A DNA stretch of 64,000 nt from an uncultured Chloroflexia bacterium (GCA_963713975.1 OY970218.1:1632001-1696000), one strand, 5' to 3'. Positions 21,491-50,226 are shown, counted from the stretch's first letter. The notes: generated from the sequence alone by a model not told the origin. Program-made: numbers and translations.

Positions 21491-21521
21491 GCTGTCTCCC
21501 GCTCCGAGCCGGCGCTTGGGT

Positions 21522-23147
21522 TCAGGCCGCCGGCTGGATATCCATCATGCGCGCTGCAACCACGCTGCGCTGGACCTTGCGCGTATGCGTCCTGGGAAAG
21601 TCGGGTTCCGGGAACGGCGCCTGTGAGACGACCCGCTGGTGCTGGGCGAGGTTCTTGTTGGCCGCACGGACCGCCGTGGCAACCGCAGCAGCCTCATCGT
21701 CCACCGGATCCGCGAAGGTGACATCGGTCCGGTAGGCGAGCGCGATGCGTCCGTCTCCCGAGTCGTACACCACCGGCTCCACGATACCCTCGGCCATCAG
21801 CGCCGCCTCCACGTCTTCGGGATGCACGTTCATGCCGTTGGGGAGGGCAATGAGCGAGCGGGTCCTGCCGACGAGGCGCAGGGAGCCGGTGGCGTCGACC
21901 TCCCCGTAGTCGCCGGTCCGGTACCAGCCGTCGGCCGTGAACGCGGCGGCCGTCGAGACCGGGTCCTCCCAGTAGCCTGCGAAGACGGACGGTCCACGGA
22001 CGACGACCTCGCCGTCCGGCTCCACGCGGAGCTCGAGCGGCGGCTCGGTCCAGCCCACCCGGTCGGCCGGTGCGCGGTCACGGTAGTTGGTGGCAACCAG
22101 GCCAGCCTCGGTGGAGCCGTAGCCCTGGATCACGGCGATGCCGAGCGCCTCCCAGCTCCGCTGCAGGGCCGGCGACAGGTACGCGGCGGAGCACAGCACG
22201 AGCCTCAGCTCGCCGCCCAGCGCCGCGTGCACCTTCTTGAACAGGCGCCGCCTGAGCGGGATGGGCAGGTATGGAGCGACCTTGAGCGCTCGCCGGAAGG
22301 TCGCCCCGCTGCCGGCCCGGTCCGCCTCGCGCCGGATCGCCCCGAACAGGAGCTCCAGAACCTGCGGCACGACGACCAGGGCGGTCGCCCGGTGCCCCTG
22401 GATCGATGCGGCGATGACATCCGGCCGGAGAGTGGTGATGTACTCGGTCTCCGCCTCGGCAGCCACCGCGTAGATGAGGCCGGCCACCTGCTCCATGATG
22501 TGCGACAGCGGCAGGATCGAGACGAAGCGGTTGCCCCCGGCCGGGATCGTCGCCAGGCAGCGCTCCGTCGAGGCCAGCAGCATCGACTGGGTGACGGTCA
22601 CGCCCTTGGGGTTGCCGGTCGAGCCCGAGGTGCACAGGATCTCGATGGGCTGGGCGGGGTCCGCGGGCTGCCGCGCCGCCAGAGCGGCCACCGCCTCCGG
22701 TGGGGCCGGGCTCGCCACGTCGTCCAGGTCGATGACGGGAAGCGCCGCCAGCCGCGGCAGGGTGATCGGCTCCAGCGTCGAGCCCGTGCCCAGCAGGATC
22801 GCGGAGGGCTTGGTCAGCGCGGCGATGCGGTCGATGGTCTCCGCCGTCATCCGCACGTCCAGTGGGACGAGGACCACGTCCGCCCGGCCCGCGGCGAACA
22901 GCGCGGCCGCGAACCCGGGTCCCGGCGCCCCCTGCACAAGGACGCGCTCGCGCGGCGCGACTGCGGCGGCAAGACGTGCGGCTGCGTTCGACACGGCCCG
23001 CCCGAACTCGGCCATCGTCAGCGAGACCTCGCGCGTGCTGGAGGATCGGACGCCCAGGAAGGGTGCATCGCCAGCTCTCGCTACGGCGCGTTCGAGCAAG
23101 CCGGTCAGGGTGTCGGGCCGGGGGGTTGCCACGGGCGGAGTGGTCAC
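21522..23147 (-). CDS. AMP-binding long-chain acyl-CoA synthetase-like enzyme
   Basis: TSGSTGNPKG, QGYGSTE, YRTGD, PRTHTRK. Confidence 0.92.
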   Translation of the reverse strand: MTTPPVATPRPDTLTGLLERAVARAGDAPFLGVRSSSTREVSLTMAEFGRAVSNAAARLAAAVAPRERVLVQGAPGPGFAAALFAAGRADVVLVPLDVRMTAETIDRIAALTKPSAILLGTGSTLEPITLPRLAALPVIDLDDVASPAPPEAVAALAARQPADPAQPIEILCTSGSTGNPKGVTVTQSMLLASTERCLATIPAGGNRFVSILPLSHIMEQVAGLIYAVAAEAETEYITTLRPDVIAASIQGHRATALVVVPQVLELLFGAIRREADRAGSGATFRRALKVAPYLPIPLRRRLFKKVHAALGGELRLVLCSAAYLSPALQRSWEALGIAVIQGYGSTEAGLVATNYRDRAPADRVGWTEPPLELRVEPDGEVVVRGPSVFAGYWEDPVSTAAAFTADGWYRTGDYGEVDATGSLRLVGRTRSLIALPNGMNVHPEDVEAALMAEGIVEPVVYDSGDGRIALAYRTDVTFADPVDDEAAAVATAVRAANKNLAQHQRVVSQAPFPEPDFPRTHTRKVQRSVVAARMMDIQPAA

Positions 23148-35910: not shown

Positions 35911-36140
35911 GGGACGCTCCTTCCATATCGGCGGTCCGCCCCACCATGGAGCGGTCTCAGTTGGGAACGATAGGCGACCGGACACGGTTTGGGGCGTTGC
36001 AGGGCGCAGGGTCTCTCGGGGTGGGCCTTGGCGCGCCCGGAGGGCGTCGGGATCGCCAACGTCCCTGGCACGCCCGGGCCGCGTCCCGGCTTGCGGGAGG
36101 ACCGATCACCCACGCGGGGCCGTGCCCTACGCTGTCGCCC

Positions 36141-38951
36141 ATGGAGGGCAGCACGGGCACGCCGGGCGGTGAGCCCGGGTCCACGGTCGAAGCAGGAGCG
36201 GCCGGTACGCCCGTCTTCGGTCGGACGGCGGAGCTGGCGGCGATCGAGCGTCTTCTCGACGCGGATCGGCTCGGAGCCCGGGCACTCGTCCTCGAGGGCG
36301 AGGCCGGGATCGGCAAGACGACGCTTGTGCGTGCCGCGCTCGGGTCGGCCGACCGTCGTGGCGCACGCATCATGCGCGCGGCACCGGGCGAGCGGGAGCA
36401 CCTGATCGCGTTCGCCGGTCTCGCGGACCTGCTGGCCAGGCTGGACGAGGACCTCCTGGCAGCGCTGCCGGTGCCCCAGTCGGTGGCGCTCGCGACCGCG
36501 ACGAGGAGGCTGGACGGCGAGACCGTCGCGGACGAGCTGGCCGTCTCGCTGGGCTTCACCGCAATCCTCCGGGATATAGCAGCCTCGGGGCTCGTCCTGC
36601 TCGTGGTGGACGATCTCCAGTGGCTCGATCCACAGACGCTTCGGGTCCTCGAGTTCGCGGCGCGTCGCATTGCAGACCAGCGGGTCGCGTTCCTGTGCTC
36701 CACGCGGACGTCGCGGCCCGGCTCCATCCCGCTGGGTCTTGACCGAAGCCTGTGGCCGGATGCGGTCGAAGTTGCACGACTGGGTCCGCTCGATGCAGTT
36801 GCACTCGACCGCCTCCTCCGGGCACGTCTCGGGATCCGGCTGCCGCGCCCGACCCTTTTGCGGCTGCTCCGCACGACCCGCGGCAATCCGTTCTATGCGC
36901 TGGAGGTCGCGGCATCCGTCGTCGACGGCGGGGAGCTGCGCATCCCTCCCACCCTTGCGGATGCGCTGGCCGGTCGTCTCGAGCGGCTTCCGAGTCGGGG
37001 ACGCCGCGCCCTCCTCCTTGCCGCGGCCAGCCTGCAACCGGTCATCGAGGTCGTGGAGGCGGCCACGGCAGACGAAGCGGGCCTGGGGCTCACGATCGCG
37101 GAGGGACTGCTCGAGGCGGACGGGCCGCGTCTGCGGTTCACGCATCCGCTCCTCGCATCCGTCGCCTACGAGCGAGCACTCCCCGGTGAGCGGCGCGCGG
37201 CCCACCGTCGGCTATCGGAGGTCGTCACCGAGCCGGTCGAGCGAGCCCTCCACCTGGCTCGTGGCCTCGAGACACCTGACGCGGATGCGGCCGCGATCCT
37301 CGAGGCCACGGCGGCGGCCGCCGCCGCACGGGGCAGTGAGGTGGCCCCTGAGCTGGCCGAGGCCGCGGCCCGACTCACCCCGCCGAGCGACACCACCGGG
37401 CGTGACCGGCGACTCGCGGCGGCCGCCGACCACCACACGGCCCAGGGGCATCCGGCTCGCGGACGAGAGCTCCTCGAGCAGGTGATCGCCGGGCAGGCTC
37501 CCGGGCCGGAGCGCGCCGCACTCCTGTGGCGGCTTGCCGACACCATAGGGGACTCCATCACCGGGCCCATCCAGCTGTGTGAGCAGGCCCTTGCCGAAGC
37601 CGGAGACGACCCTGGCCTGCGCAGCGAGATTCACACGGCCCTGGGGTCGTTCACCTGGATTGCCGGGGATCTCAATGGGTCACTTGCGCACTGCCTGGAA
37701 GCGGTCCGCTATGCCGACCGCTCAGGGGACTCTGCGCAGCTCGCGATCGCGATCGGCGAGGCGTGTCATGCGAACGTTATCCTCGGGCTGCCGTGGGATC
37801 GGGCCGCGATGGACCGCGCTCTCGCGATCGAGGCCGCCGGAACCGAGATCCCCGCCGCGCTCCGTCCCTCGATGCAGCTCGGGATCATCGCCCTCATCAC
37901 CGACGATCCCGGGACGGCCGAGCCCGTGTTCCGCGAGGAAGTCCGCCGGACGCAGGCGATCGGCGACGAGCCGGGTGCATTCCACGCGCTGATGCGCCTG
38001 AGCGAGCTCGGCCTTCGAACCGGGCAGTGGGCCGCAGCGCTCGCCACCGCCCGTGAGGCGCACGCCCTGGTCATACAGGCGGGGATCGAGCAGGAGGAGG
38101 CTGCGATCGCGGTGGCCCTCGCGGCCGTGCTTGCCCATGTCGGAGCCATTCCGGAGGCCGAGGACCTCGCCGGGGAGGCCTACCGCACCGCCGACGCCGG
38201 GGGGGACCGGGGCGTCGCCCTCCGGGCTGCCGGCGTGCTCGGGTTCATCGAGCTGTCGCGGGGTCGGCCCGATCTCGCCGTGACCTGGCTCTCGCCCGCC
38301 CGCCGTGAGCTGATCGCGATGGGAACGGGGGAGCTGTCGATCTCCAGCGTTGTCCAGAACGAGATCGAGGCGCTCGTCAGCACGGGCGCCCTGGACGAGG
38401 CAGATGCCGTGATCGAGCATGTCGAGCGGATCGGCACGCGAACGGGTCGGACCTGGCACCGCGTGGTTGCCGCCCGCGGGCGGGCCCTGGCCGCATCTTC
38501 CAGGAGTGATGAGCAGGGCGCCGCGACGGCCATCGACGAGGCGCTTCGCTTGGGCGAGGAGCTCCCGCAGCCGTTCGAGCGGGCGAGGACGCTGCTTGCG
38601 GCGGGGGTGGTGGAGCGTCGGGCACAGCACTGGGCCGTCGCACGGACGAGGCTGGTGGCGGCGCTCGAGGCGTTCGACGGACTCGGGGCATCCGCGTGGG
38701 CGGAGCGGGCGGCTGACGACCTGCGCCGGCTGCCCGGTCGTCGGCCGGGCGGCAACCAGCTGTCCGACACCGAGCGCCAGGTCGCGGCCCTCGTGGCGGA
38801 TGGACTCTCGAACAAGGAGGTGGCTGGACGCATGTTCCTGTCCGTGCGCGCGGTCGAGGCTAACCTCACGCGGATCTACGCAAAGCTCGGCGTTCACTCC
38901 CGGGTGGAGCTCGCGCGCCGCGGAGACCAGCTCGCCGACCCCCGGCCCTGA
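36141..38951 (+). CDS. large AAA-ATPase / LuxR-HTH transcriptional regulator
   Basis: GEAGIGKTT, VDDLQWLD, GNPFYALE, LSDTERQVA...SNKEVA; TACGCT 7 nt upstream of the ATG. Confidence 0.92.
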   Translation: MEGSTGTPGGEPGSTVEAGAAGTPVFGRTAELAAIERLLDADRLGARALVLEGEAGIGKTTLVRAALGSADRRGARIMRAAPGEREHLIAFAGLADLLARLDEDLLAALPVPQSVALATATRRLDGETVADELAVSLGFTAILRDIAASGLVLLVVDDLQWLDPQTLRVLEFAARRIADQRVAFLCSTRTSRPGSIPLGLDRSLWPDAVEVARLGPLDAVALDRLLRARLGIRLPRPTLLRLLRTTRGNPFYALEVAASVVDGGELRIPPTLADALAGRLERLPSRGRRALLLAAASLQPVIEVVEAATADEAGLGLTIAEGLLEADGPRLRFTHPLLASVAYERALPGERRAAHRRLSEVVTEPVERALHLARGLETPDADAAAILEATAAAAAARGSEVAPELAEAAARLTPPSDTTGRDRRLAAAADHHTAQGHPARGRELLEQVIAGQAPGPERAALLWRLADTIGDSITGPIQLCEQALAEAGDDPGLRSEIHTALGSFTWIAGDLNGSLAHCLEAVRYADRSGDSAQLAIAIGEACHANVILGLPWDRAAMDRALAIEAAGTEIPAALRPSMQLGIIALITDDPGTAEPVFREEVRRTQAIGDEPGAFHALMRLSELGLRTGQWAAALATAREAHALVIQAGIEQEEAAIAVALAAVLAHVGAIPEAEDLAGEAYRTADAGGDRGVALRAAGVLGFIELSRGRPDLAVTWLSPARRELIAMGTGELSISSVVQNEIEALVSTGALDEADAVIEHVERIGTRTGRTWHRVVAARGRALAASSRSDEQGAATAIDEALRLGEELPQPFERARTLLAAGVVERRAQHWAVARTRLVAALEAFDGLGASAWAERAADDLRRLPGRRPGGNQLSDTERQVAALVADGLSNKEVAGRMFLSVRAVEANLTRIYAKLGVHSRVELARRGDQLADPRP

Positions 38952-40589: not shown

Positions 40590-40691
40590 CGGGCGAACGG
40601 GGCGGCGATGATAGGGTCCGAGGGATCATCCGCCGATGACAAGCAAGGTGATGCAGCGTTGAGATCGAGCCGGGACCCCCGAGCTCCGGTG

Positions 40692-42794
40692 ATGGACGAA
40701 CGGTTGACGGCGGTCCTGAGCCGGATCTTCGGACCCGATGACGGCGCCCGCGGCCTCCCGATCCTCGACCTCTCGCCCTGGCTCCAAGCCGGTGTCGATC
40801 CGCTCGCGCAGGTGACGGCTGCGTTCATCGTGGTCGCCACCGGTACGGCCCATCCGGACCACGACCGGGCCTCGGACGTGCTGGCGAGGCCGCCGAAGGG
40901 ACCGGTCGCCAGACTCGCCGCCTTCTATCGCGTGGGGCTGGACCGGATGTCCGCCGAGCTCGAGCCCCTCACCGTCGACCACCCGGAGGCCGCCGCGCGG
41001 CTGCATGCAGCGGTCGCCGCGCTCGATGGCGCGACCAACGTCGAGGAGGCCCGGGAGGCCATCTGGACCGCGTTCTTCCCGCAGGCCGCGGGTATCCGGG
41101 GCAACGAGGAGGGACGCACCCGCGACCTGCGGGCGGCGCGGACGGTCACCGTGACCCGTCCTGCCCCGGACCCGATGACAGACCCTGCGCGTGACGTCCT
41201 GTTCACCTCTAACGTCCTGCTCACGGTCCCCGCCGGGACCACCGATATCGGGGCCCTGCCGTACCCGCAGCCAATGCGGGAGGCGATCGCGGCCGCGGCC
41301 GACGGCCCGCAGGGCTACTGGTTCGACCACCCGATCCAGCTTGGTGTGGAGCCGGCCGCCAACGAGCTGGCGTACGGGTTACGCGGCCTGGACGCGGCCG
41401 TGGATGTCGAGCCGGGGGCGGGACGTGTCACCTGCGTGCTCTCAGTGAGCGTCACGCACGATGGCCTGGGCCTGGTCGCCCGCCCGTACGTGGAGGCGGA
41501 GCTTGCGCGCGCAGGCGGGCTGCGCCACGTGGATGTCGTCGCGGTGGTGGAGGACGACGCCCGTCGGCTCGTGGACGAGGTGATCGTCCCTGCCCTTGCG
41601 CTCAGCCTGGGTGAGCCAGCCGCGCTGGCCGCCGCTCCCGGATTGCACAGCGTTCTTGGGGTGGACGGTGAGTACGGCCGCCACTACAGCTTCCTGAAGG
41701 CCATCGCCGCGCTCTGGCACGTCGCCGTCGACCCGTCCGTCCGGGCGACGTTCAAGATCGACCTGGACCAGGTCTTCCCGCAGGAGGTGCTCGTCGCGGA
41801 GACCGGCCTGACCGCGTTCGGCCATCTCGCCACCCCGTTGTGGGGTGCAGCCGGCCTCGACGCCGAGGGTCGCGACATCGAGCTCGGCATGCTCGCCGGC
41901 GCGTTGGTCAACGAGCGCGACATCCGGCGCGGCCTGTTCACGCCGGACGTGGACCTCCCAAGCCGCGACCCAAGCCTCGACGAGCATCTCGTATTCAGCA
42001 CCCTGCCGCAGGCCATCTCCACCCGCGCCGAGATGATGGAGCGCTATGACGGATCGGGTGTCGACGGGGTGGATCGGGCCCTCGAGCGGATCCACGTCAC
42101 CGGTGGCACGACCGGCATCCGGGTGGATGCCCTTCGTCGCCATCGACCGTTCAGCCCCACCTTCGTCGGCCGCGCCGAGGACCAGGCGTACGTCCTCTCG
42201 ACCCTGGGCCAACCGGGCCCACGGCTGGCCTACGCCCACGCGGCCGGCCTGATCATGCGCCATGACAAGGATGCCTTCGCCGGCGAGGCCATGGCCGCGG
42301 CCCACGTCGGCAAGCTCGTCGGCGACGACGTCCGGATCCTCACGTTCTCCGCGTACGCCGCGGCCGTGGCCGGGGATGGCCGTGCCGGCGCCCTTGACCG
42401 CGCCGCCCTCGCGCGCCTCCTGGATCCCTTCACCGGCGGGTTCGTCTCGGCCATTCCGGAGACGCTCGTGCTCCTGCGCGTGGCCCTGCGGACGCTCCGC
42501 ATGTTTGCCACCGGCGAGGCGAAGGACGCACGCGAGTACGCGATCGCCGCCGCGCGCCGTGTCGAGGAGGCGCTCCGGGAGCTGGGGGATGCCCCGGTGG
42601 TCGCCAGGCGTGTGCAGCAGGAGCGGATCGCCTGGGATCACTACTATGACGCGCTCGATGCCCTCGAGGCCGGGATCCAGGCTGGAGACGAACGTGCCCT
42701 GGAGCTGCGGGCGCGCGCCGTCGGGATCATCGACGGGTGCCGGGTCATGGGCGTGGTCCCCGAGCCGGCCTCCACGGAGGCCCGATCCGCGTGA
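40692..42794 (+). CDS. large hypothetical protein, possible GT-A fold
   Basis: Long ORF with coding-like codon use; FKIDLDQVF, HVTGG, GRAEDQAY, MRHDK. Start uncertain (40608-40692). Confidence 0.75.
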   Translation: MDERLTAVLSRIFGPDDGARGLPILDLSPWLQAGVDPLAQVTAAFIVVATGTAHPDHDRASDVLARPPKGPVARLAAFYRVGLDRMSAELEPLTVDHPEAAARLHAAVAALDGATNVEEAREAIWTAFFPQAAGIRGNEEGRTRDLRAARTVTVTRPAPDPMTDPARDVLFTSNVLLTVPAGTTDIGALPYPQPMREAIAAAADGPQGYWFDHPIQLGVEPAANELAYGLRGLDAAVDVEPGAGRVTCVLSVSVTHDGLGLVARPYVEAELARAGGLRHVDVVAVVEDDARRLVDEVIVPALALSLGEPAALAAAPGLHSVLGVDGEYGRHYSFLKAIAALWHVAVDPSVRATFKIDLDQVFPQEVLVAETGLTAFGHLATPLWGAAGLDAEGRDIELGMLAGALVNERDIRRGLFTPDVDLPSRDPSLDEHLVFSTLPQAISTRAEMMERYDGSGVDGVDRALERIHVTGGTTGIRVDALRRHRPFSPTFVGRAEDQAYVLSTLGQPGPRLAYAHAAGLIMRHDKDAFAGEAMAAAHVGKLVGDDVRILTFSAYAAAVAGDGRAGALDRAALARLLDPFTGGFVSAIPETLVLLRVALRTLRMFATGEAKDAREYAIAAARRVEEALRELGDAPVVARRVQQERIAWDHYYDALDALEAGIQAGDERALELRARAVGIIDGCRVMGVVPEPASTEARSA

Positions 42795-42856: not shown

Positions 42857-43984
42857 CTACTCGCTGCGGTTCCGCTTGGCCTCGATCAGGGCGGCGTCAG
42901 CGGTCGCGGTGAGCTCGTCAAGGCTCTCGTTCGCGGTGAGCGCGGCCAGCCCCGCCGTGATCCCGACCCCGGTGGCATGGCGCATGGACTGGTCGATCAC
43001 GGAAATGCGGTGCTGCACCTCGTCCGTGTCGATCGATGAGATCCCGCAGATGAACTCGTCACCACCAAACCTCACGATCGGGTCATACGACCGGAGGTTG
43101 GCGCGCATGGTCGCTGCGAGCGTCCGGAGGATCCGGTCGCCGGCCGCGTGACCCTCCCGGTCGTTGACGCCCTTGAGCCCATCGACGTCGATGAAGGCGA
43201 TGACGAATTTGCCGTCGGCGCGTCGCGCCCGCTCGATCTCGTTCCTGAGCGCAAGCCGGCCGATCTCGCGTCGGAAGACGCCGGTCAGGGCATCGAGGTG
43301 GGCACGCTGGAGCTCGGCCTCCAGGCGGGCACGTTCGAGCGCGGCGTCATCGGGGACGTCAGATCCGGTCTCCCGCCCAGGGCTGAGGCGAGCGACCGCG
43401 ATCGAATCCCGCTCCACGGCCGCCTTGTCCCTGGAGTTCGCGATCGAGTCCCGCTCTACGGCCGCCTTGTCCCTGGTGTTCGCGATCGCGTCCCGCTCCG
43501 CGGCCGCCTTCTCGCGTGCCTCGACCGCGGCGGCCCGCTCCGCGGCTGCGAGCTCCTTCGACTCCACGGCGGCGGCGCGTGCCAGCGCGGCGCTGTGCAT
43601 CGTCTCGGCGATCTCCACCCGTTCCGCGGCGGCCTTCTCCTTGGCCTCGACGATCTCGGCGCGCTCCGCGGCGGCCCGGTACATCGTCTCGGCGATCTCC
43701 GCCCGATCCGCGGCCTCGCGCTCCCGCACCTCAGCGATCTCCGCTCGCTCCGCGGCAGCGCGGTACATGGCCTCGGCGATCTCCACCCGCTCGTCGGCCT
43801 CGCGCTCCCGCGCCTCGGCATCAACTTCCATCTCCGCGCCGGGGGTCCCGGATGTGTCGACGCTGGAGGCACTCGCATCCTCCGTGACGACCTGTTCCGC
43901 CGCGGCAGGTGTGATGGCGATCGAGGCGAGGAGGGACTCCTGCAGCTCCCGCGCCTTTCGCTTCTTCATCTTGCGCAGTTTCAC
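42857..43984 (-). CDS. cytoplasmic diguanylate cyclase with a coiled-coil repeat N-terminus
   Basis: DALTG, DVDGLKGVND, RSYD I-site, GGDEF. Confidence 0.88.
   Translation of the reverse strand: MKLRKMKKRKARELQESLLASIAITPAAAEQVVTEDASASSVDTSGTPGAEMEVDAEAREREADERVEIAEAMYRAAAERAEIAEVREREAADRAEIAETMYRAAAERAEIVEAKEKAAAERVEIAETMHSAALARAAAVESKELAAAERAAAVEAREKAAAERDAIANTRDKAAVERDSIANSRDKAAVERDSIAVARLSPGRETGSDVPDDAALERARLEAELQRAHLDALTGVFRREIGRLALRNEIERARRADGKFVIAFIDVDGLKGVNDREGHAAGDRILRTLAATMRANLRSYDPIVRFGGDEFICGISSIDTDEVQHRISVIDQSMRHATGVGITAGLAALTANESLDELTATADAALIEAKRNRSE
43395..43800 (-). repeat. about 9-10 degenerate 42-bp (14-aa) tandem repeats
   Basis: ERVEIAEAMYRAAA / ERAEIAEVREREAA / ... / ERDSIANSRDKAAV. 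Confidence 0.85.
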
Positions 43985-44224: not shown

Positions 44225-45215
44225 ATGACCAAACCGACGTCACCTGCGTACGCGATCGCCGACGAGCTGCGGGACTTCCTCCTGGGCCTCCACCAGCCTG
44301 GATCTCGACGCCGGACAGGTCCACGAGATCGGGCTCGAACAGGTTGCCCGGCTCGAGGCCGAGTACCTGGCGATCGCCGCGCCGCTCCTGGGGACCACGA
44401 GCCTCGCGGGGATCTACGGGCGACTCCGTGACGACCCGGCGCTGCACTACCACGACGCCGACACGCTCGTCGCGGATGCCACCGACGCCCTCGCCCGCGC
44501 GACTGCCGCGGCTCCGGCATGGTTCGGCACGCAACCGCGGGCGACGTGCACGGCGAATCCCAGCCAGCAGGGCGGGCTCGCGTTCTACTCGCCGCCCACG
44601 CGGGAGGGCACCAAGAACGGCGAGTTCTTCTTCAACACCGCGGACCCGACGGTCTGGGGCACCTACCAGCTCCAGTCGGTGACGTTCCACGAGGGCGTTC
44701 CCGGCCACCACTTCCAGTTCGCCGTCGCCCAGGAGCTCCCCGGCCTGCACCCGATCCTGGCCGAGTACCTGGTCTTCTCGTACAACGAGGGATGGGGCCT
44801 GTACACCGAGCGCCTCGCCGACGAGATGGGCCTGTACACGACGGAGCTCGACCGGATCGGCATGCTCGCCGCCGACTCGATGCGGGCCTGCCGGCTGGTG
44901 GTGGACACGGGGATGCATGCTCTCGGCTGGACCCGCGACCAGGCCATCGCGTACTTCCTGGATCACTCGCCGATGACCCACGGGCAGGTGGTCGGCGAGG
45001 TCGACCGGTACATCGGCTGGCCCGGCCAGGCCTGCAGCTACATGCTGGGCCGGATCGCGATCGATGACATCCGGGCCAGGGCCGAGACCCGTCTCGGCGA
45101 CCGCTTCGACATCCGCGCGTTCCATGACGAGGTCCTCGCCGCCGGCTCGATCCCGCTCGAGTCGCTCCGCCGGACTATCGATGCCTGGGCTGAGGCGCTG
45201 GCGACGCGGCCCTGA
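44225..45215 (+). pseudogene. DUF885-family gene with a large internal deletion and frameshift
   Basis: Leaderless-type start MTKPTSPAYAIADEL is joined out of frame, near 44285-44295, to ...VHEIGLEQVARL...FHEGVPGHHFQ...YNEGWGLY...PGQACSY. Confidence 0.75.
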
Positions 45216-45489
45216 TCCCGACCTGGGTCAGCCACGCTCGGAGCCGGCAGGCGATGCGGCTGTGGATCGGACCGATGGTCAGCGAGCGTTGCCTGGACGC
45301 CAACCGTGACGCTCGGCACTCCGCCACGCTACAGCGTCACGCCGCCGACTCCCACGTGACTCACGCACAGAGGTACCGGGCTCGCCGCCCGCGCCGCCCG
45401 TGATCCCGGGGCGTGCGAAGACGCGCACCCTCGGGGCGCAGCGCACTGGTCATGGCAGGTCGGGACCACGTGGGCCGTATCCTCGTTCC

Positions 45490-46551
45490 GTGGAATCTGC
45501 ACGCCTGGCGGCCGTTGGCGGCCCGAGCTCCGGACGCGCCGCACGCACTGGGCCAATCGGGATCGCACTCGGCCCGGACACCGGCCGACTGACAGCCGAG
45601 CTCGTTGAGGCGGCGATGGCGGGCGCATCGGACCTTGGGCGCGATGCGCATCTCGTCCGCCGCGGCGACGACCAGTCCGAGCTCGGTGTGCTGCTCGGCA
45701 TCGGCAACCCGAGCAGCTTCCTGCCGATCCTCGTGGCCTCGCCGGTCTGCCCAAGGGTCATCTGGTCGGGCGAGCCGATCCCCGTGCGCGGTGAGCCGCC
45801 GGCCGGGCTCGTGGGCCGCATCGCCCGTTCGCCGCGCCTGGACGATCTTCGCCATCGATTGCAGCCGATCAAGGACCTGCCGCTTCCGGGCCCGCTTGCG
45901 CGAATGAGGGCTTCGGCGACGCTCGACCACCATCGGGCACGCTACGTGCGCGAGCTCGCGACGGTTGCCAGGACCGCGGACCGCGTGGTGGTCACGAGCC
46001 GTGATCGCAGGTCCGCCCTTCTCGAGCACGGGCTGACCGCAGTGGCGGTGCCGTTCGGGTACGTGGCCGCGACCGCCGGCCCGATCACGTCGCCGGGGGA
46101 GTGCGACCGGGACCTCGCCATCGTCTCGCTGGGGGTGCACGCCCCCCGGCTCGCGGGGCGGCGGTCACTGGTGGCCCGATGGCAGGCCGATGAGCCGCGC
46201 ATCACCGTCCTCGACGGCGTCTGGGGAGAGGAGCGCGGCAGCCTCCTCCGGCGCTCCCGTGTGGTCTTGAACGTGGGTCGGACGCCCGGCAATTTTGTCG
46301 GCGTGCGACTCGTCCTGGCCCTCGCCGCGGGAGCGGTGGTGGTCTCCGAGCCCATGGCCGACCCGTTCCCGTTCGTCGCCGGCGTCCACTTCGTGGAGGC
46401 GCCGCTCGATGGGCTCCTGGATGCGGCCCGGGAGCTCCACGCGGACGAACCGCGACGCCGGCGCATTGCCGAGGCAGGCCAGGCACTCCTGGTCGGTGAG
46501 CTGTCGATGTCCCGCTGCCTGCGCGCGGCCTTGGGTCCCTGGGCCGGCTGA
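45490..46551 (+). CDS. glycosyltransferase (GT-B, Glyco_trans_1_2/CgeB-like C-terminus)
   Basis: LRRSRVVLNV, RLVLALAAGAVVVSE, RRRIAEAG; TATCCT 6 nt before GTG 45490. Confidence 0.75.
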   Translation: MESARLAAVGGPSSGRAARTGPIGIALGPDTGRLTAELVEAAMAGASDLGRDAHLVRRGDDQSELGVLLGIGNPSSFLPILVASPVCPRVIWSGEPIPVRGEPPAGLVGRIARSPRLDDLRHRLQPIKDLPLPGPLARMRASATLDHHRARYVRELATVARTADRVVVTSRDRRSALLEHGLTAVAVPFGYVAATAGPITSPGECDRDLAIVSLGVHAPRLAGRRSLVARWQADEPRITVLDGVWGEERGSLLRRSRVVLNVGRTPGNFVGVRLVLALAAGAVVVSEPMADPFPFVAGVHFVEAPLDGLLDAARELHADEPRRRRIAEAGQALLVGELSMSRCLRAALGPWAG

Positions 46552-46553
46552 CC

Positions 46554-47666
46554 TCAGGCGGCTCCGTCGAATGCAAGGACGCCTTCGATGACCCGCTCGA
46601 CCTCGCCGTCCGTGAGGCCCGGGAAGAGCGGGATGGTGACCAGCTGTCGCCAGGCCGCCTCGGTCACCGGCAGCGCCCGTGAGTACGGGGCGTACAGCTC
46701 GTAGAGGTGCGTGGGCTTGTAGTGGACGCTCGTGGCGACTCCACGTCCGGCCATGTGATCGATGAACCTGTCGCGCTCGGGAACCCGGATGGCGTAGAGG
46801 TGCCACGCGGACCGGACATGGTCGAGCTCGACGGGGCGGGTCACCCAGTCCAGCCCGGCGAATGCATCCGAGTAGCGCCGCGCGATGGTCCGCCGCCGTT
46901 CGTTCGCCTCGGGCAGCCGCCGAAGCTGGACGAGGCCGATGGCGGCCGGGATGTCGCTGAGATGGCCCTTGAAGCCGATCTCCTCGAGGTCGTAGTCCCA
47001 GCGATAGCGGGTCCCGTCGGTTCGTTCCCACGTGCTCGCGCTCAGGCCCAGCCAGCGCGTGCGGCGCAGCCTCGCGGCGATGCCCGGGTCGGCCACGGTG
47101 ATCCCGCCGCCCTCGCCCATCGCCAGGTTCTTGACCGCGTGGAAGCTGAAGCAGGTCAGGTCGGCGATCGAACCGACCGGCTGGCCGCGGTAGGTCGCCC
47201 CGCACGCATGCGCCGCATCCTCGATCACCGTAAGGCCGTGCGCCCGGGCCAGGCCGCCGATCGTCCGGAGGTCCGCGGGATGGCCGCCGTAGTCCACCAC
47301 CATGATCGCGGCGGTGCGAGTCGTGATCAGCCGCTCGACGTCGGCCGGGTCGATGGTGAGCGTGTCGCGGTCCACGTCGGCGAAGACCGGAGTTCCGCCG
47401 GCCTGGAGGATGGCGTGGTTGGTGGACACGAACGTCAGGGCGGGCGTGATCACCTCCCGCCCCGCCAGGTCGAGGGCCGCAAGCGAGAGGAGGAGCGCCA
47501 TGCTCGCCGAGCTCGTGCCGACGCAGTGCGCCGCGCCGACCGCCTCCGCGAACCGGGCTTCGAACTCGGCGGTCTTCGGCCCGAGCCCCCACCAGCCAGA
47601 TCGGAGGACCTCGGCAACGGCGGCCTCTTCCTCTGGGCCGGCAGAGGGGCGGAACACGGGGATCAC
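46554..47666 (-). CDS. DegT/DnrJ/EryC1/StrS sugar aminotransferase
   Basis: IEDAAHACGA, FSFHAVKNL (PLP Lys), GEGG. Confidence 0.95.
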   Translation of the reverse strand: MIPVFRPSAGPEEEAAVAEVLRSGWWGLGPKTAEFEARFAEAVGAAHCVGTSSASMALLLSLAALDLAGREVITPALTFVSTNHAILQAGGTPVFADVDRDTLTIDPADVERLITTRTAAIMVVDYGGHPADLRTIGGLARAHGLTVIEDAAHACGATYRGQPVGSIADLTCFSFHAVKNLAMGEGGGITVADPGIAARLRRTRWLGLSASTWERTDGTRYRWDYDLEEIGFKGHLSDIPAAIGLVQLRRLPEANERRRTIARRYSDAFAGLDWVTRPVELDHVRSAWHLYAIRVPERDRFIDHMAGRGVATSVHYKPTHLYELYAPYSRALPVTEAAWRQLVTIPLFPGLTDGEVERVIEGVLAFDGAA

Positions 47667-47724
47667 TGGACGATCTTATGTCGAGGGGCCGGACGCGACC
47701 GTCGCGGCTGGTAGATTGGACCCC
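47667..47724. promoter_or_regulatory. divergent leaderless-type promoter pair
   Basis: TAAGAT (minus, 47678-47673) is 6 nt before GTG 47666; TAGATT (plus, 47712-47717) is 7 nt before GTG 47725. Confidence 0.65.
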
Positions 47725-48366
47725 GTGCTGGTACCACGCGTGATCCTGGTCGGGGCCGCCTCGTTCGCCGAGGAGGTCTCGGACCTCGCCGCGATGGCCG
47801 GCGTCGAGGTGGCGGCCTGGGTCGAGGGGCTGGACCGGTCCGTGGTTGACGCGGCGCACGACCCGCCGATCCTGTGGGTTGACGACCAGGCGGCGTTCGA
47901 GCCTGACCTGCCGATCCTGCCCGCCATCGGTTCGGTGCTGCGCATGGGCATCGTCCGCCGGCTCGTCGGCGAGGGCCGCCGGCTCGCCACGCTGGTCCAC
48001 CCGTCCGCCGTGGTGTCGCCATCGGCCGTGATCGAGCCCGGCTGCGTCATCTTCCCGCTCGTGGTCGTCGGCGCCCGCTCCCGCATCGGCGAAGGGACGG
48101 TCGTGAACCGCGGCACGCTCGTGGGCCACCACACGGAGGTCGGCAGGTACTCCTTCCTCGGGCCGGGCGCAAACGTCGCCGGCAAGGTCACTCTCGGGGA
48201 GCAGGTGCACGTGGGCGTCGGCGCGGTCGTGCGCGACCGTCTCCACGTCGGGGACCGATCCGTCATCGGGATGGGTGCGGTGGCGGTCAAGGACGTCCCG
48301 CCCGACGTGACGGTCGTCGGCATCCCGGCGGCGCAGAAGCGGCGCTCAGGAGAGGACGGCCAGTGA
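47725..48366 (+). CDS. NeuD/PglD-family hexapeptide sugar N-/O-acyltransferase
   Basis: AIG...R, TLVHPSAVVS, hexapeptide repeats, VGHH, KDVPPDVTVVGIPA. Confidence 0.92.
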   Translation: MLVPRVILVGAASFAEEVSDLAAMAGVEVAAWVEGLDRSVVDAAHDPPILWVDDQAAFEPDLPILPAIGSVLRMGIVRRLVGEGRRLATLVHPSAVVSPSAVIEPGCVIFPLVVVGARSRIGEGTVVNRGTLVGHHTEVGRYSFLGPGANVAGKVTLGEQVHVGVGAVVRDRLHVGDRSVIGMGAVAVKDVPPDVTVVGIPAAQKRRSGEDGQ

Positions 48367-49229
48367 ACGACGAGCTCGTCATCAACCTCTGCCCGACCGG
48401 CATGGTGCCCACGAGAGCCGACACGCCACATGTGCCGTTGACGGCCCAGGAGGTTGCCGCCGACGTTCGCCGCTGCGCCGACGCGGGCGCCTCCATCGTC
48501 CATATCCACCCCCGGGATGCCGAGGGTCGCCCGTCGCAGGATCCCGCACTGGCGGCCGAGTTCATCCGCGCCGTCCGCGTGGCCGCCCCGGGCATCGTTG
48601 TCTGCATCACGACGAGCGGCCGCATCCGGCACGAGCTCGAAGGCCGTGTTCAGGTCCTGGACCTCGAGGGCGATGCCAGGCCGGAGATGGCGAGCCTCAC
48701 CCTCGGATCGCTGAACTTCCCGAAGGCCGCCTCGATCAACGCCCCCGAGACGATCCAGGGCCTGGCCACCCGGATGCGGGAACGGGGGATCGTGCCGGAG
48801 CTGGAGATCTTCGATGCCGGCATGCTCGACTACGCGCAGTACCTGCGGGATCGGGGCGTGCTCGGCGGCCCGGTCTACGCGAACATCCTCCTCGGTTCCC
48901 TGGGAACGCTCGCCGCGACCCCGTTCAACCTGGCCCTGCTGGTCGAGCGCCTGCCGCCGGGCTCGGTGTGGGCCGCAGCTGGCATCGGCCGGTACCAGTT
49001 CCTGATGAACCGGATCGCCATCGCGATGGGCGGCGGCGTTCGGGTCGGACTGGAGGACAACATCTGGTTCGATGACGACCGCACGGAGCTCGCGACGAAC
49101 CCCCGCCTCGTGGAACGCCTGGTCGCGATCGCGAGGGCGATGGGCCGCGAGCCGGCGACTCCCGACCAGGTGCGGGAGCGGCTGGCCATCACCGCACCCG
49201 TCGCTGCCCCCGCGGCGCGGCCGGGATGA
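48363..49229 (+). CDS. beta-keto acid cleavage enzyme (BKACE/DUF849, Kce family)
   Basis: PHVPLT, AGASIVHIH, SLTLGSLNF, PELEIFD, VRVGLEDN; GTGA overlap with the acyltransferase. Confidence 0.92.
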   Translation: MNDELVINLCPTGMVPTRADTPHVPLTAQEVAADVRRCADAGASIVHIHPRDAEGRPSQDPALAAEFIRAVRVAAPGIVVCITTSGRIRHELEGRVQVLDLEGDARPEMASLTLGSLNFPKAASINAPETIQGLATRMRERGIVPELEIFDAGMLDYAQYLRDRGVLGGPVYANILLGSLGTLAATPFNLALLVERLPPGSVWAAAGIGRYQFLMNRIAIAMGGGVRVGLEDNIWFDDDRTELATNPRLVERLVAIARAMGREPATPDQVRERLAITAPVAAPAARPG

Positions 49230-49263: not shown

Positions 49264-50226
49264 ATGACCCTGATCCACCGCCTGCTCCTGTCCATGACCC
49301 TGGTCGGCCTGCTGCTCGGGCTCCTGGCGCCCGCTGCCTCCGCAGCGTCGCCGGCCTTCCCGGTCCAGAGCCTGGGAAACCGGGGCACGGACGTGGAGGC
49401 CATCCAGTGGCTCCTCGCCGGTCGTGGATCCCCGGTTGCCGCGGACGGGGTGTTCGGCACGACGACCGCCGCTGCCGTGAAGGCCTTCCAGACCAGCGCC
49501 GGGCTCACCGCCAACGGGATCGTCGGCGACGGCACCTGGAAGGCGCTGATCCGGCCCCTTCGGACGGGCGACTCCGGCCCTGCCGTCAAGGCCCTCCAGG
49601 GAGAGCTCCGCGCCAAGCGTCGCCTCGACGTCCCCGTTGATGGGGTGTTCGGGCCGTCCACCCGTGCCGCGGTCCGCACGTTCCAGGCGCACGCGGGACG
49701 ACCGGTGACAGGCGAGGTGACCCGTTCGACATGGCGCAGGCTGATCGCGCACTTCGAACTGCCGACGTTCAACGGCAAGTCATTGTGCGACTACAGCGTC
49801 GGCAACGCGGCGGCGAACTGGGGAACGGCGTCGACCATCGGCCAGGTGGAGGCCGCTGCCCGGATCGTGGCCGCGAAGGGCTACGGTCGCGTGGTGGTCG
49901 GCGACGTGAGCCGTGAGCACGGCGGCGACATCTCCCTCCACCAGACCCACGAGGTCGGCCTGGACGTCGACCTCCGGTTGATGCGCAAGGCGGACGACCA
50001 GTGCCGCTGGGGTGTCAACTGGCGCTGGTCCACCTACGACCGAAAGGCCACCAGGGCGCTCGTGAAGGCAATCCGGGCCACGGCCCCCGGCCACGTCAAA
50101 CTGATCTACTTCAACGATCCGGTCCTGATCCGTGATGGCCTGACCCGCCCGTACCCGGGTCATGACGACCACCTCCACGTGCGCTACTGCGAGAAGAGCC
50201 ACCCGCTCGCCAAGTACGACTGCTGA
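49264..50226 (+). CDS. secreted peptidase: two PG-binding domains plus a MepA-like murein endopeptidase
   Basis: Signal peptide, DGVFG..T..AV..FQ twice, HQTHEVGLDVD, HDDHLHVR. Confidence 0.88.
   Translation: MTLIHRLLLSMTLVGLLLGLLAPAASAASPAFPVQSLGNRGTDVEAIQWLLAGRGSPVAADGVFGTTTAAAVKAFQTSAGLTANGIVGDGTWKALIRPLRTGDSGPAVKALQGELRAKRRLDVPVDGVFGPSTRAAVRTFQAHAGRPVTGEVTRSTWRRLIAHFELPTFNGKSLCDYSVGNAAANWGTASTIGQVEAAARIVAAKGYGRVVVGDVSREHGGDISLHQTHEVGLDVDLRLMRKADDQCRWGVNWRWSTYDRKATRALVKAIRATAPGHVKLIYFNDPVLIRDGLTRPYPGHDDHLHVRYCEKSHPLAKYDC

What the first reader, a model, noticed from the sequence alone, without database searches (positions are those of the whole stretch)
45490..49229. BKACE embedded in an amino-sugar acylation cluster: candidate new glycan-tailoring pathway
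Seen: a DegT aminotransferase and a NeuD/PglD acyltransferase diverge from a 58-bp promoter region. The acyltransferase is coupled by a GTGA overlap to a BKACE/Kce-family enzyme, and a GT-B glycosyltransferase abuts the aminotransferase. Known: BKACEs convert a beta-keto acid plus acetyl-CoA to acetoacetate plus a new acyl-CoA (Kce gives 3-aminobutyryl-CoA) and are usually catabolic. The anthrose operon pairs an acyl-CoA-supplying crotonase with a GT, an aminotransferase and a hexapeptide acyltransferase. Inference: BKACE supplies an unusual acyl-CoA for N-acylation of an NDP-amino sugar that is then transferred to a surface glycan. No other lysine-fermentation genes are in the window. I do not know of this combination being characterised, but cannot check.
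Basis: partly seen in the sequence, partly recalled or inferred. Interest (0 to 1): 0.72.

Follow-up and report, generated by a model that had tools for sequence, protein, structure and literature searches.

The report
BKACE-acyltransferase amino-sugar acylation cassette
A small gene group for decorating a cell-surface amino sugar contains an enzyme type otherwise known from nutrient breakdown, and its constant pairing (and occasional fusion) with acyl-transferring enzymes in many bacteria points to an undescribed way of making the acyl group that gets attached.

Summary
The four genes are real and lie where stated: a glycosyltransferase (45400/45490-46551 +), a DegT aminotransferase (46554-47666 -), a 58-bp divergent gap, a NeuD/PglD-type acyltransferase (47725-48366 +) and a BKACE (48363-49229 +) joined by a GTGA overlap. 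One correction: the glycosyltransferase and DegT converge, so they are not co-transcribed.

The BKACE is not a lysine-fermentation Kce. It scores 256 bits against a cut-off of 382, and it has Val where Kce has Glu14.

It belongs to a separate clade, 99 of 125 sequences in my tree, with an invariant Ser85/Arg87/Ser124 signature. Members of this clade sit within 300 nt of an acyl-CoA-dependent acyltransferase in 57 of 80 metagenome loci: 38 hexapeptide-type and 19 GNAT. Several are fused to one: 10 GNAT fusions and 3 PglD-type fusions. One is fused to a DegT.

The most likely mechanism is that the BKACE makes a non-acetyl acyl-CoA, which the transferase puts on an NDP-4-amino sugar. This is inferred, and the acyl group is unknown. 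Arg87 hints that it is anionic or polar.

Four literature searches found no paper on this. This scan has noted the same cassette before on other genomes.

The parts
45400..46551 (+). Glycosyltransferase (Glyco_trans_1_2 / CgeB-like, probable GT-B). Alternative in-frame start GTG 45490. Convergent with DegT.
   Evidence: Pfam PF13524, E 1.2e-11; no NCBIfam hit. Homologous glycosyltransferases lie next to NeuD-BKACE in L008 (43% id), L026/L056 (44% id) and L119. Start codons; stop TGA 46549-46551.
46554..47666 (-). DegT/DnrJ/EryC1-type PLP sugar aminotransferase, 370 aa
   Evidence: PF01041, 372.8 bits. Best NCBIfam matches are ArnB at 303 bits and PseC at 300 bits, both below their cut-offs. 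Best solved relative is ArnB 1mdo, 259 bits. The G178 orthologue is 82% identical and in the same divergent arrangement.
47667..47724 (.). 58-bp divergent intergenic region between DegT and the acyltransferase
   Evidence: Sequence read. No sigma-70 consensus found.
47725..48366 (+). NeuD/PglD/VioB/PerB-like left-handed beta-helix sugar N-acyltransferase, 213 aa
   Evidence: TIGR03570, 162.0 bits against cut-off 160.8; Hexapep. Best solved relatives are PglD 2npo/3bss, VioB 7txp, PglB 4m98 and PerB 4ea7. His135 is invariant in 14 BKACE-linked homologues.
48349..48356 (+). Shine-Dalgarno-like GGAGAGGA, 6 nt before the BKACE start, inside the acyltransferase 3' end
   Evidence: Read directly.
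48363..49229 (+). BKACE (DUF849) of the acyltransferase-linked clade, 288 aa. Start GTG overlaps the acyltransferase stop (GTGA).
   Evidence: PF05853, 299.2 bits. Kce equivalog NF052387 scores 256.4 against a cut-off of 382. It is the only BKACE in the 3.62-Mb genome. Clade placement; signature.
49264..50226 (+). Secreted peptidoglycan hydrolase (2x PG_binding_1 plus an M74-like domain), 34 nt downstream on the same strand. A neighbour, not a conserved member of the cassette.
   Evidence: Pfam. A signal-peptide-like N-terminus begins at ATG 49264. It is not found next to BKACE in related loci.

Best explanation
This is a compact amino-sugar tailoring module. DegT aminates an NDP-keto sugar made by a dehydratase encoded elsewhere in the genome. 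The BKACE belongs to a distinct clade that keeps the family's zinc and catalytic residues but has its own substrate pocket. It takes a small beta-keto acid plus acetyl-CoA and releases acetoacetate plus a non-acetyl acyl-CoA. The PglD/VioB/PerB-like acyltransferase is translationally coupled to the BKACE and uses that acyl-CoA to N-acylate the sugar's amino group. A glycosyltransferase then adds the acylated sugar to an envelope glycan.

Shown here:
- gene identities and the translational coupling
- conservation of the BKACE-acyltransferase pair, including fusions
- separation of this clade from Kce

Inferred:
- the direction of the BKACE reaction
- that its acyl-CoA product is the transferase's donor
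- the acceptor sugar
- the acyl group, which is unknown; invariant Arg87 with Ser85/Ser124/Thr113/Tyr172/Asn174 suggests an anionic or strongly polar side chain
For: 1. Family calls and overlap.

2. Genome collection: 9 of 13 informative loci from seven phylum-level lineages have a hexapeptide acyltransferase beside the BKACE. The other 4 have a GT2, GT1s plus a GNAT, a GNAT, or a GT4 plus DegT.

3. Own phylum: 43 of 401 genomes hold a BKACE at E<=1e-30. Only the two close orthologues, G178 (87% id) and G373 (76% id), have the acyltransferase adjacent. 27 others, at 45% identity or less, do not within 1.5 kb. G373 carries a full operon of LCP, DUF3048, DegT, GT, NeuD and BKACE, next to a phosphoglycosyl transferase and a GDP-mannose 4,6-dehydratase.

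4. Metagenomes: of 80 loci, 38 have a hexapeptide acyltransferase and 19 have a GNAT acyltransferase within 300 nt. Two have an ATP-grasp gene and 21 have nothing. Among the 41 loci with at least 1 kb on both sides, 29 have one within 300 nt and 6 more within 1-2 kb. Same strand: 34 of 38 hexapeptide and 16 of 16 of the 215-aa GNAT type.

5. Fusions:
   - BKACE-PglD_N-hexapeptide: P0004, P0005 and P0129, the last two in one cluster seen on 8 and 2 contigs
   - 8 GNAT-BKACE and 2 BKACE-GNAT, 1 BKACE-DegT, among 21 long 50%-cluster representatives scanned. All of these carry the window's signature.

6. Trees: an 18-versus-26 split with SH-aLRT 100 (quick IQ-TREE) and a 99-versus-26 split with support 1.0 (FastTree). 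Hexapeptide- and GNAT-linked members are interleaved. The partner fold therefore changed repeatedly while the BKACE pocket stayed the same.

7. Signature: Ser85, Arg87 and Ser124 in 99 of 99 clade members. Outside the clade (26 rows), Ser85 occurs in 2; the commonest residues are Ala/Gly/Val at position 87 and Phe/Trp/Tyr at position 124. His47, His49, Glu231, Asp232, Arg227 and Glu148 are conserved in all.

8. Arg87 aligns with BsfD Arg91. The flavophos preprint places that residue near the anionic phosphonate (passages read).

9. The genome has a CoA-transferase gene pair that could salvage acetoacetate.

10. A precedent exists for a BKACE proposed to make an unusual acyl-CoA, D-glyceryl-CoA (passages).
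Against: - No biochemical datum exists for any member of this clade.
- No gene in the window or in the minimal two-gene modules explains where a special beta-keto acid would come from.
- 21 of 80 metagenome loci, and 6 of the 41 with full flanks, show no adjacent acyltransferase.
- The closest plasmid homologue (Streptomyces camelliae, 55.7% id) groups with the window's subclade. It sits between ribA and a SAM methyltransferase near rosB/ribC/ribX, with no acyltransferase.
- The glycosyltransferase is convergent to DegT, and the dehydratase is not local.
- The acyltransferase clears its NCBIfam cut-off by only 1.2 bits. Its solved relatives are all acetyltransferases.
- The apparent NeuD-BKACE fusion in L001 is a 1-nt frameshift artefact.
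- A KamA-like gene (987 kb) and a partial Lys-AminoMut_A-like ORF (1.929 Mb) exist elsewhere in the genome. kdd and kal were not searched by family.
Confidence: 0.6

Rival explanations
1. The BKACE remodels the acyl chain after it is on the sugar. The acyltransferase would attach a malonyl or acetyl group. The BKACE would then perform a BsfD-like acetyl transfer with decarboxylation, or a Claisen extension, to give an N-acetoacetyl sugar. That would be functionally analogous to VioS in the viosamine island.
For: BsfD is a BKACE homologue that acetylates and decarboxylates instead of cleaving (passages), and Arg87 aligns with BsfD Arg91. The viosamine-island pathway is proposed to pass through dTDP-N-acetoacetylviosamine (passages). 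BKACE-glycosyltransferase and BKACE-DegT fusions exist, P0003 and P0146.
Against: In a canonical BKACE structure a single narrow entry channel is fully occupied by acetyl-CoA, leaving little room for an NDP-sugar (passages). The same invariant pocket pairs with GNATs in loci that have no sugar genes. No reductase is conserved in the module.
Confidence: 0.15
2. The acyltransferase is an ordinary acetyltransferase, and the BKACE has an accessory role not tied to the donor's identity. Examples would be local recycling of acetoacetate and acetyl-CoA, or an unrelated reaction on another pathway intermediate.
For: All solved relatives of the transferase use acetyl-CoA (molecule names). No source of a beta-keto acid is encoded nearby.
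Against: Recurrent fusions to two unrelated acyltransferase folds, and tight same-strand coupling, are hard to explain without a shared metabolite. The genome already has a second, canonical NeuD in a dehydratase/aminotransferase cluster without a BKACE.
Confidence: 0.1
3. The BKACE runs in the condensing direction, or its free-acid product (acetoacetate or a new beta-keto acid) is the unit that gets attached, by an ATP-dependent ligase rather than through CoA.
For: The BKACE reaction is reversible in vitro (methods passage). PylC-like or sugar-transfer-associated ATP-grasp genes sit beside the BKACE in L149, L191, L142 and L195.
Against: Only 2 of 80 loci have an ATP-grasp gene as the immediate partner, against 57 with an acyl-CoA-dependent transferase. 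The window has no ligase.
Confidence: 0.08
4. The BKACE is a catabolic enzyme (lysine fermentation, carnitine, aromatic or deoxy-sugar breakdown) that lies next to the sugar genes by chance.
For: The family is mostly catabolic (passages). KamA-like and partial KamD-like genes exist elsewhere in the genome.
Against: It fails all four NCBIfam BKACE equivalogs. Val stands at the Kce Glu14 position. The KamA-like gene is 690 kb away, with no recognised partners beside it. Homologues of genes that flank true Kce in other Chloroflexota are scattered and none lies near 1.68 Mb. The adjacency recurs across phyla.
Confidence: 0.03

Closest known systems
[quoted passage not shown]
   Same: Same fold family; it is the best solved relative at 183 bits. 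The two His and the Glu/Asp/Arg that align with the Kce metal and catalytic residues are invariant. That these are the Zn ligands is recalled from the Kce structure paper, which I could not read.
   Different: 256 bits against the equivalog cut-off of 382. Glu14 becomes Val/Ile, Ala86 becomes Arg87 and Phe119 becomes Ser124, and there is a 4-residue insertion. The context is biosynthetic glycan or acyltransferase genes, not kamA/kdd/kal.
Anthrose operon antABCD of Bacillus anthracis/cereus (recalled; no paper read here)
   Same: The logic is the same: an enzyme that supplies an acyl-CoA, plus a glycosyltransferase, an aminotransferase and a hexapeptide N-acyltransferase acting on a 4-amino-4,6-dideoxyhexose.
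   Different: The acyl-CoA supplier there is a crotonase-type hydratase. Here it is a Zn-dependent TIM-barrel BKACE. No crotonase lies in the cluster.
Viosamine island of Pseudomonas syringae pv. tabaci (vioA, vioB, vioS, vioR, acp, vioM, vioT; PMC3927599, passages read)
   Same: A dedicated gene set builds a non-acetyl N-acyl group (3-hydroxy-1-oxobutyl) on a 4-amino-4,6-dideoxyhexose. It contains a DegT-type aminotransferase, a VioB-type transferase and a glycosyltransferase.
   Different: The acyl chain there is made by KAS III, a reductase and an ACP. None of these is present here; a BKACE stands in their place.
PglD / VioB / PglB / PerB sugar N-acetyltransferases (PDB 2npo, 3bss, 7txp, 4m98, 4ea7)
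   Same: They are the best solved relatives of the window's transferase, at 76-86 bits. The length and the beta-helix are the same, and the His aligned with the PglD catalytic His is conserved.
   Different: All of those use acetyl-CoA. This one is translationally coupled to a BKACE. Its BKACE-linked relatives cluster only partly in the NeuD tree: 8 in one group with 93% support.
BsfD of the flavophos pathway (PDB 9zsc; bioRxiv 10.64898/2026.01.15.699783, passages read)
   Same: It is a biosynthetic rather than catabolic BKACE homologue. Its Arg91, next to the anionic group of the substrate, aligns with the clade-invariant Arg87.
   Different: BsfD has a loop insertion of about 20 residues and sits in a phosphonate cluster. 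It scores 142 bits. It does not release an acyl-CoA.

Membership tests
BKACE / DUF849 (PF05853) | Whole-protein match to the family profile above the gathering score | tested here: met
   299.2 bits against a cut-off of 24.8, covering profile positions 2-273 of 274.
BKACE / DUF849 (PF05853) | Metal-binding His-x-His and Glu, plus the catalytic Glu/Asp/Arg, conserved | tested here: met
   His47, His49, Glu231, Asp232, Arg227 and Glu148 align with Kce 2y7d and are invariant in 125 sequences. The roles of these residues are recalled, not read.
BKACE / DUF849 (PF05853) | Beta-keto acid + acetyl-CoA -> acetoacetate + acyl-CoA activity | not testable with these tools
   This needs an enzyme assay.
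[quoted passage not shown] | Score at or above the curated equivalog cut-off | tested here: not met
   256.4 bits against 382. Thirteen clade relatives score 216-287. Six true Kce of the same phylum score 407-424.
[quoted passage not shown] | Acidic residue (Kce Glu14) for the substrate's amino group | tested here: not met
   The aligned position is Val15. It is Val or Ile in 99 of 99 clade members and Glu in the 6 true Kce. The role of Glu14 is recalled.
[quoted passage not shown] | Neighbourhood with kamA, kamDE, kdd, kal | tested here: not met
   None is in the window. The KamA-like gene is 690 kb away with no recognised partners beside it. A partial KamD-like ORF lies 250 kb away. kdd and kal were not searched by family.
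3-oxoadipate:acetyl-CoA acetyltransferase (NF053568) and 3,5-dioxohexanoate enzyme (NF053538) | Score at or above the curated cut-off | tested here: not met
   206.8 bits against 350, and 163.6 bits against 430.
NeuD/PglB/VioB sugar acyltransferase subfamily (TIGR03570) | Score at or above the curated cut-off, full-length match | tested here: met
   162.0 bits against 160.8, covering profile positions 2-201 of 202. The margin is narrow.
NeuD/PglB/VioB sugar acyltransferase subfamily (TIGR03570) | Catalytic His of the PglD type | tested here: met
   His135 aligns with the His of the PglD EHE motif and is invariant in 14 BKACE-linked homologues. The role of this His is recalled.
NeuD/PglB/VioB sugar acyltransferase subfamily (TIGR03570) | Acyl-CoA donor specificity | not testable with these tools
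   This needs an assay with acetyl-CoA and alternative acyl-CoAs.
DegT/DnrJ/EryC1 sugar aminotransferases (PF01041) | Family profile match; specific equivalog | tested here: met
   372.8 bits for the family. No equivalog is reached: ArnB 303 against 631, PseC 300 against 423.5. The sugar substrate is therefore unassigned.
Anthrose-type operon (antABCD) | Crotonase-family acyl-CoA hydratase as the acyl supplier | tested here: not met
   No ECH-family gene is in the cluster. The only one in the window lies at 20693-21544, 25 kb away. The cluster works like this operon but is not a member.

The most novel reading that the evidence does not exclude
The acyltransferase-linked BKACE clade is a portable 'make-and-attach' module. 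From ubiquitous metabolites (acetyl-CoA plus a common, probably carboxylate-bearing or polyhydroxylated beta-keto acid) it generates an acyl-CoA that cells do not otherwise hold. Candidates are oxalyl-, formyl- or glyceroyl-CoA. It hands this to whichever acyltransferase fold it is paired with. In glycan loci such as this one, that would produce a so-far unassigned, possibly new, N-acyl decoration on 4-amino sugars. It would also explain orphan N-acyl groups whose genetic basis is unknown.
Probability: 0.4. Interest if true: 0.82.

Novelty: new variant of a known kind. Interest (0 to 1): 0.7.

Why it matters
Non-acetyl N-acyl groups on bacterial amino sugars and nonulosonic acids shape antigenicity and phage and immune recognition. 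Their genetic origin is often unknown. For example, the Tannerella paper calls the basis of N-glyceroyl and N-acetimidoyl groups 'a major challenge' (PMC5378307, passages read).

If the reading here is right, it has four consequences:
- It gives the BKACE family a biosynthetic branch, which at 50% clustering already numbers at least 84 representatives among the best 150.
- It predicts a testable two-enzyme assay.
- It offers a genomic marker for unusual glycan acylation in uncultured phyla.
- It adds a CoA-thioester-forming route that needs no ATP.

Tried and rejected
- **L001 fusion.** The 487-aa NeuD+BKACE ORF looked like a fusion. Reading the junction shows a 1-nt frameshift near the NeuD 3' end that restores the usual GTGA overlap when corrected mentally. 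I do not count it.
- **P0006 and P0007.** Their Arg-rich stretches look like out-of-frame translation. Not counted.
- **BKACE-aspartate-aminotransferase fusions.** P0211 and P0223 at first suggested oxaloacetate as the substrate. They carry a sister signature (Gly85/Arg87/Tyr124/His154/His172), so they bear only weakly on this clade.
- **Partner co-inheritance.** I asked whether BKACE-linked NeuDs form one clade. They do so only partly (long branches).
- **Other NeuD loci.** 0 of 30 other NeuD-family loci in the phylum have a BKACE within about 1.5 kb. The association therefore runs one way.
- **Phages.** No BKACE match in the phage collection.
- **ESM Atlas.** Returned only generic BKACE clusters.
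- **Bastard et al. 2014.** The paper could not be read. Assignment to ASMC groups G1-G7 was therefore replaced by NCBIfam cut-offs, a tree and a residue signature. Group descriptions come from PMC4922564.
- **Structure prediction.** Closed.
- **Complex prediction (acyltransferase with BKACE).** It never ran. The job was lost and the queue was then full. There is no verdict.
- **Earlier notes on this genome.** None fit this place.

Full report
**Observation.** The window has 71% G+C, so I picked genes by third-position GC and checked them against Pfam and NCBIfam.

- Glycosyltransferase: 45400-46551 (+), PF13524, E 1.2e-11. An in-frame GTG at 45490 is an alternative start.
- DegT aminotransferase: 46554-47666 (-), PF01041, 372.8 bits.
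- NeuD/PglB/VioB-family hexapeptide acyltransferase: 47725-48366 (+), TIGR03570, 162.0 bits against a cut-off of 160.8.
- BKACE: 48363-49229 (+), PF05853, 299.2 bits.

The divergent gap is 58 bp. The GTGA overlap is read directly, with GGAGAGGA 6 nt upstream of the BKACE start. The glycosyltransferase and DegT converge with 2 nt between their stop codons, so 'abuts' is right but co-transcription is excluded.

The ORF after the BKACE is a secreted peptidoglycan hydrolase. Its likely start is ATG 49264, 34 nt downstream. No other glycan gene lies in the 64 kb.

**What kind of BKACE.** It is the only BKACE in the 3.62-Mb, single-contig genome. It fails all four NCBIfam BKACE equivalogs: Kce 256.4 against 382, 3-oxoadipate enzyme 206.8 against 350, and the other two lower still.

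The best solved relative is Kce 2y7d at 183 bits. In that alignment:
- Kce Glu14 is Val15 here
- Kce Ala86 is Arg87
- Kce Phe119 is Ser124
- four residues are inserted near position 101

Residues aligned with the Kce metal and catalytic residues are kept. Their roles are recalled. I could not read the Kce structure paper or Bastard et al. 2014.

**Is the link conserved? Four samples.**

(a) *Genome collection.* It returned 14 loci, and one is only a 37-residue fragment. Of the 13 informative loci, 9 have a hexapeptide acyltransferase next to or near the BKACE. These come from:
- two Chloroflexia MAGs
- Phycisphaeraceae
- Gastranaerophilales
- Smithella
- a Syntrophaceae MAG
- Maribacter
- a 35%-GC MAG labelled Rhizobium
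- Undibacterium nitidum

The other 4 have a GT2, GT1s plus a GNAT, a GNAT plus a FemAB-like gene, or a GT4 plus DegT. Contexts include DegT-NeuD-BKACE-epimerase/dehydratase (L003) and NeuB-BKACE-hexapeptide (L011).

(b) *Own phylum.* 43 of 401 genomes, the window's own included, have a BKACE at E<=1e-30. In the own family it is 2 of 23, and in the own genus 0 of 3, so the gene is accessory. Of the best 29 loci, only the two close orthologues carry the acyltransferase: G178 (87% id) and G373 (76% id).
- G178 repeats the window's divergent DegT | NeuD-BKACE layout, with a flippase.
- G373 has LCP-DUF3048-DegT-GT-NeuD-BKACE beside a phosphoglycosyl transferase and a GDP-mannose 4,6-dehydratase.

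(c) *Metagenomes.* There were 574 relatives, of which the best 80 loci were kept. I clustered their ORFs, named the clusters by Pfam and measured distances by tblastn. Partner within 300 nt of the BKACE:

| Partner | Loci (of 80) |
|---|---|
| Hexapeptide acyltransferase | 38 |
| 215-aa protein that is a GNAT (13 of 13 members hit PF00583) | 16 |
| Pfam-evident GNAT | 3 |
| PylC-like ATP-grasp | 2 |
| Nothing | 21 |

Among the 41 loci with at least 1 kb on both sides, 29 have an acyltransferase within 300 nt, 6 more within 1-2 kb, and 6 have none. DegT lies within 3 kb in 14 of 80 and a glycosyltransferase in 24 of 80. The GNAT-linked pairs sit in unrelated housekeeping neighbourhoods. The hexapeptide-linked ones sit in glycan loci.

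(d) *The reverse check.* 0 of 30 other NeuD-family loci in the phylum have a BKACE in their flanks.

**Fusions.** A search for longer proteins found:
- BKACE-linker-PglD_N-hexapeptide proteins: P0004, and P0005 with P0129, seen on 8 and 2 contigs
- one BKACE-GT1 protein, P0003

A profile search of 1.84 billion 50%-cluster representatives gave 644 hits at E<=1e-30. I scanned 21 long proteins among the best 150:

| Architecture | Count |
|---|---|
| GNAT-BKACE | 8 |
| BKACE-GNAT | 2 |
| BKACE-DegT | 1 |
| BKACE-aldo/keto reductase | 1 |
| BKACE-aspartate-aminotransferase-like | 2 |
| BKACE only | 7 |

The aminotransferase-like identity rests on the best PDB match, 1o4s at 153 bits. The GNAT, DegT and reductase fusions carry the window's residue signature. 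The two aminotransferase fusions carry a sister signature.

The apparent fusion in L001 is a frameshift artefact and is not counted.

**Phylogeny and signature.**
- A quick IQ-TREE of 44 BKACEs splits 18 acyltransferase- or glycosyltransferase-linked rows from 26 others with SH-aLRT 100. The careful search did not finish. Three frameshifted or fragmentary rows, L004, L012 and L014, were left out.
- A FastTree of 125 rows splits 99 from 26 with support 1.0.

Inside the 99, hexapeptide-linked and GNAT-linked members interleave, so the partner fold was exchanged repeatedly.

| Position | In the clade (99 rows) | Outside (26 rows) |
|---|---|---|
| Ser85 | 99 | 2; otherwise Gly or gap |
| Arg87 | 99 | mostly Ala, Gly or Val |
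| Ser124 | 99 | Phe, Trp or Tyr |
| Thr113, Leu114, Met154 | 98 each | commonest residues differ; Thr113 in 4, Met154 in 8 |
| Asn174 | 97 | mostly Ser, Gln or Asp |

(All.) At 50% clustering, 84 of the best 150 representatives show Ser85/Arg87/Ser124.

Arg87 aligns with Arg91 of BsfD. The flavophos preprint places that residue near the substrate's phosphonate (passages). The same position is Arg in three uncharacterised structures (3no5, 3chv, 3fa5) and Ala in Kce.

**Rest of the genome.**
- Sugar dehydratase candidates lie elsewhere.
- A second, canonical NeuD (172.6 bits) sits at 165 kb with a UDP-GlcNAc 2-epimerase, a CBS-nucleotidyltransferase, an SDR dehydratase, a DegT and a GT2, and no BKACE.
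- A KamA-like gene at 987 kb has no recognised lysine-fermentation neighbours.
- A partial Lys-AminoMut_A-like ORF at 1.929 Mb lies beside a beta-eliminating lyase and an MFS transporter.
- Homologues of genes that flank true Kce in other Chloroflexota are scattered, and none is near the BKACE.
- A CoA-transferase pair at 2.292 Mb could recycle acetoacetate.

**Mechanism.** The simplest reading uses canonical BKACE chemistry. A beta-keto acid plus acetyl-CoA gives acetoacetate plus an acyl-CoA (passages). The acyl-CoA is the donor for the coupled acyltransferase.

The window's transferase is closest to PglD, VioB, PglB and PerB. The molecule names show these act on bacillosamine, viosamine and perosamine, i.e. 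on the 4-amino group of 4-amino-4,6-dideoxyhexoses (position recalled). This model explains three things:
- why two unrelated CoA-dependent transferase folds recur as partners
- why fusions occur in both orders
- why the pocket is invariant whatever the partner

It does not say what the acyl group is. Loss of the Kce Glu and gain of Arg87 plus several Ser/Thr/Tyr/Asn argue against an amino-substituted substrate. They argue for an anionic or strongly polar one.

Two-gene modules with no third conserved gene suggest a common metabolite as substrate. Candidates, all speculative:
- oxaloacetate giving oxalyl-CoA; ObcA is a precedent in the family, seen only as a weak PDB hit, with its chemistry taken from the passage
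- malonate semialdehyde giving formyl-CoA, an activity found in more than 20 of 124 BKACEs
- 4,5-dihydroxy-3-oxopentanoate giving glyceryl-CoA

**Rivals.**
- *Post-transfer remodelling of the N-acyl chain.* BsfD-like chemistry, or a role like VioS in the viosamine island, stays possible. The single channel filled by acetyl-CoA in a solved BKACE argues against it, and so do the sugar-free GNAT contexts.
- *Purely catabolic role.* Unlikely.
- *Acetyl-only transferase.* A role unrelated to donor identity, with an acetyl-only transferase, cannot be excluded by sequence.
- *Counter-example.* The nearest plasmid homologue (Streptomyces camelliae, 55.7% id) lies in a riboflavin/roseoflavin-type cluster without an acyltransferase.

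**Known or new.** I ran four full-text searches: BKACE (28 papers), DUF849 (15), '3-keto-5-aminohexanoate cleavage' (38) and 'keto acid cleavage enzyme' (23). Judged by titles, abstracts and the passages I opened, none ties the family to sugar N-acylation or to an acyltransferase partner.
- The NetSyn preprint's main text mentions neither aminotransferase nor acetyltransferase. Its supplementary tables, which list genomic-context clusters, could not be seen and might bear on this.
- Bastard et al. 2014 was not readable.

This scan has already reported the same BKACE-acyltransferase cassette on other genomes (seven notes). This window is therefore a further, Chloroflexota, instance of a recurrent, unpublished pattern.

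I file it as a new variant of a known kind. Amino-sugar N-acylation cassettes with a dedicated acyl supplier are known, such as the anthrose operon and the viosamine island. The supplier enzyme here is of a type not known in that role.

**Limits.**
- The loci in samples (a) and (c) were chosen by similarity to this BKACE, and many are related, so the counts are descriptive and not independent trials.
- Gene calling in the loci was heuristic.
- Adjacency distances come from tblastn HSPs.
- There are no expression data.

Noticed in passing
window 44229-45215 (+): A DUF885 ORF matches only profile positions 222-531 of 532 (354 bits). The N-terminal ~220 residues are missing, and a GGDEF gene occupies the upstream space on the other strand. 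It is probably a truncated gene remnant at the edge of the inserted sugar genes.
   Followed up: partly
own genome G000:C1 about 160000-174000 (locus L089): A second, canonical amino-sugar cluster without a BKACE. It holds a GT1, a UDP-GlcNAc 2-epimerase, NeuD (172.6 bits), a CBS-nucleotidyltransferase, an SDR 4,6-dehydratase, a DegT and a GT2. It looks like a bacillosamine or legionaminic-acid-type pathway, and it could supply the keto sugar for the window's DegT.
   Followed up: partly
L057 (Streptomyces camelliae plasmid NZ_CP115301.1) 11995-12849: A BKACE 55.7% identical to the window's groups with the window's subclade in the tree (support 0.82). It lies between ribA and a SAM methyltransferase, near rosB, ribC, ribX and a gamma-glutamyltransferase. 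This is a flavin-analogue-type cluster, not a glycan one.
   Followed up: partly
metagenome loci L153, L163, L169, L173, L176, L180, L185 and others: Two-gene BKACE + 215-aa GNAT modules are inserted in unrelated housekeeping neighbourhoods, with no sugar genes. The acceptor of this GNAT is unknown.
   Followed up: partly
proteins P0211, P0223 (representatives library): BKACE is fused to an aspartate-aminotransferase-like domain. These proteins belong to a sister group with signature Gly85/Arg87/Tyr124/His154/His172. Aminotran_1_2 genes also sit beside the BKACE in 3 metagenome loci. This hints at oxaloacetate-type substrates for that group.
   Followed up: partly
L001 about 5900-6000; L004; L012: Long-read MAG loci carry frameshifts in NeuD, BKACE or DegT. 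In L001 this mimics a gene fusion.
   Followed up: yes
own genome G000:C1 1928235-1930331 (L088 7235-9331): A 698-aa ORF has only a partial match to the D-lysine 5,6-aminomutase alpha TIM-barrel domain (105 bits). A beta-eliminating lyase and an MFS transporter follow it. No B12-binding partner was seen among the scanned neighbours.
   Followed up: partly
window 3116-6463 (+), 35946-38951 (+), 62224-63999 (-): Three large AAA_16/MalT-TPR + GerE (LuxR-type) regulators lie in one 64-kb window. There are also two GGDEF genes (15960-17453, 42857-43984) and a PntAB transhydrogenase pair (12911-15842).
   Followed up: no
window 40608-42794 (+): A 728-aa ORF with strong coding bias (GC3 0.87) has no Pfam or NCBIfam match.
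   Followed up: no
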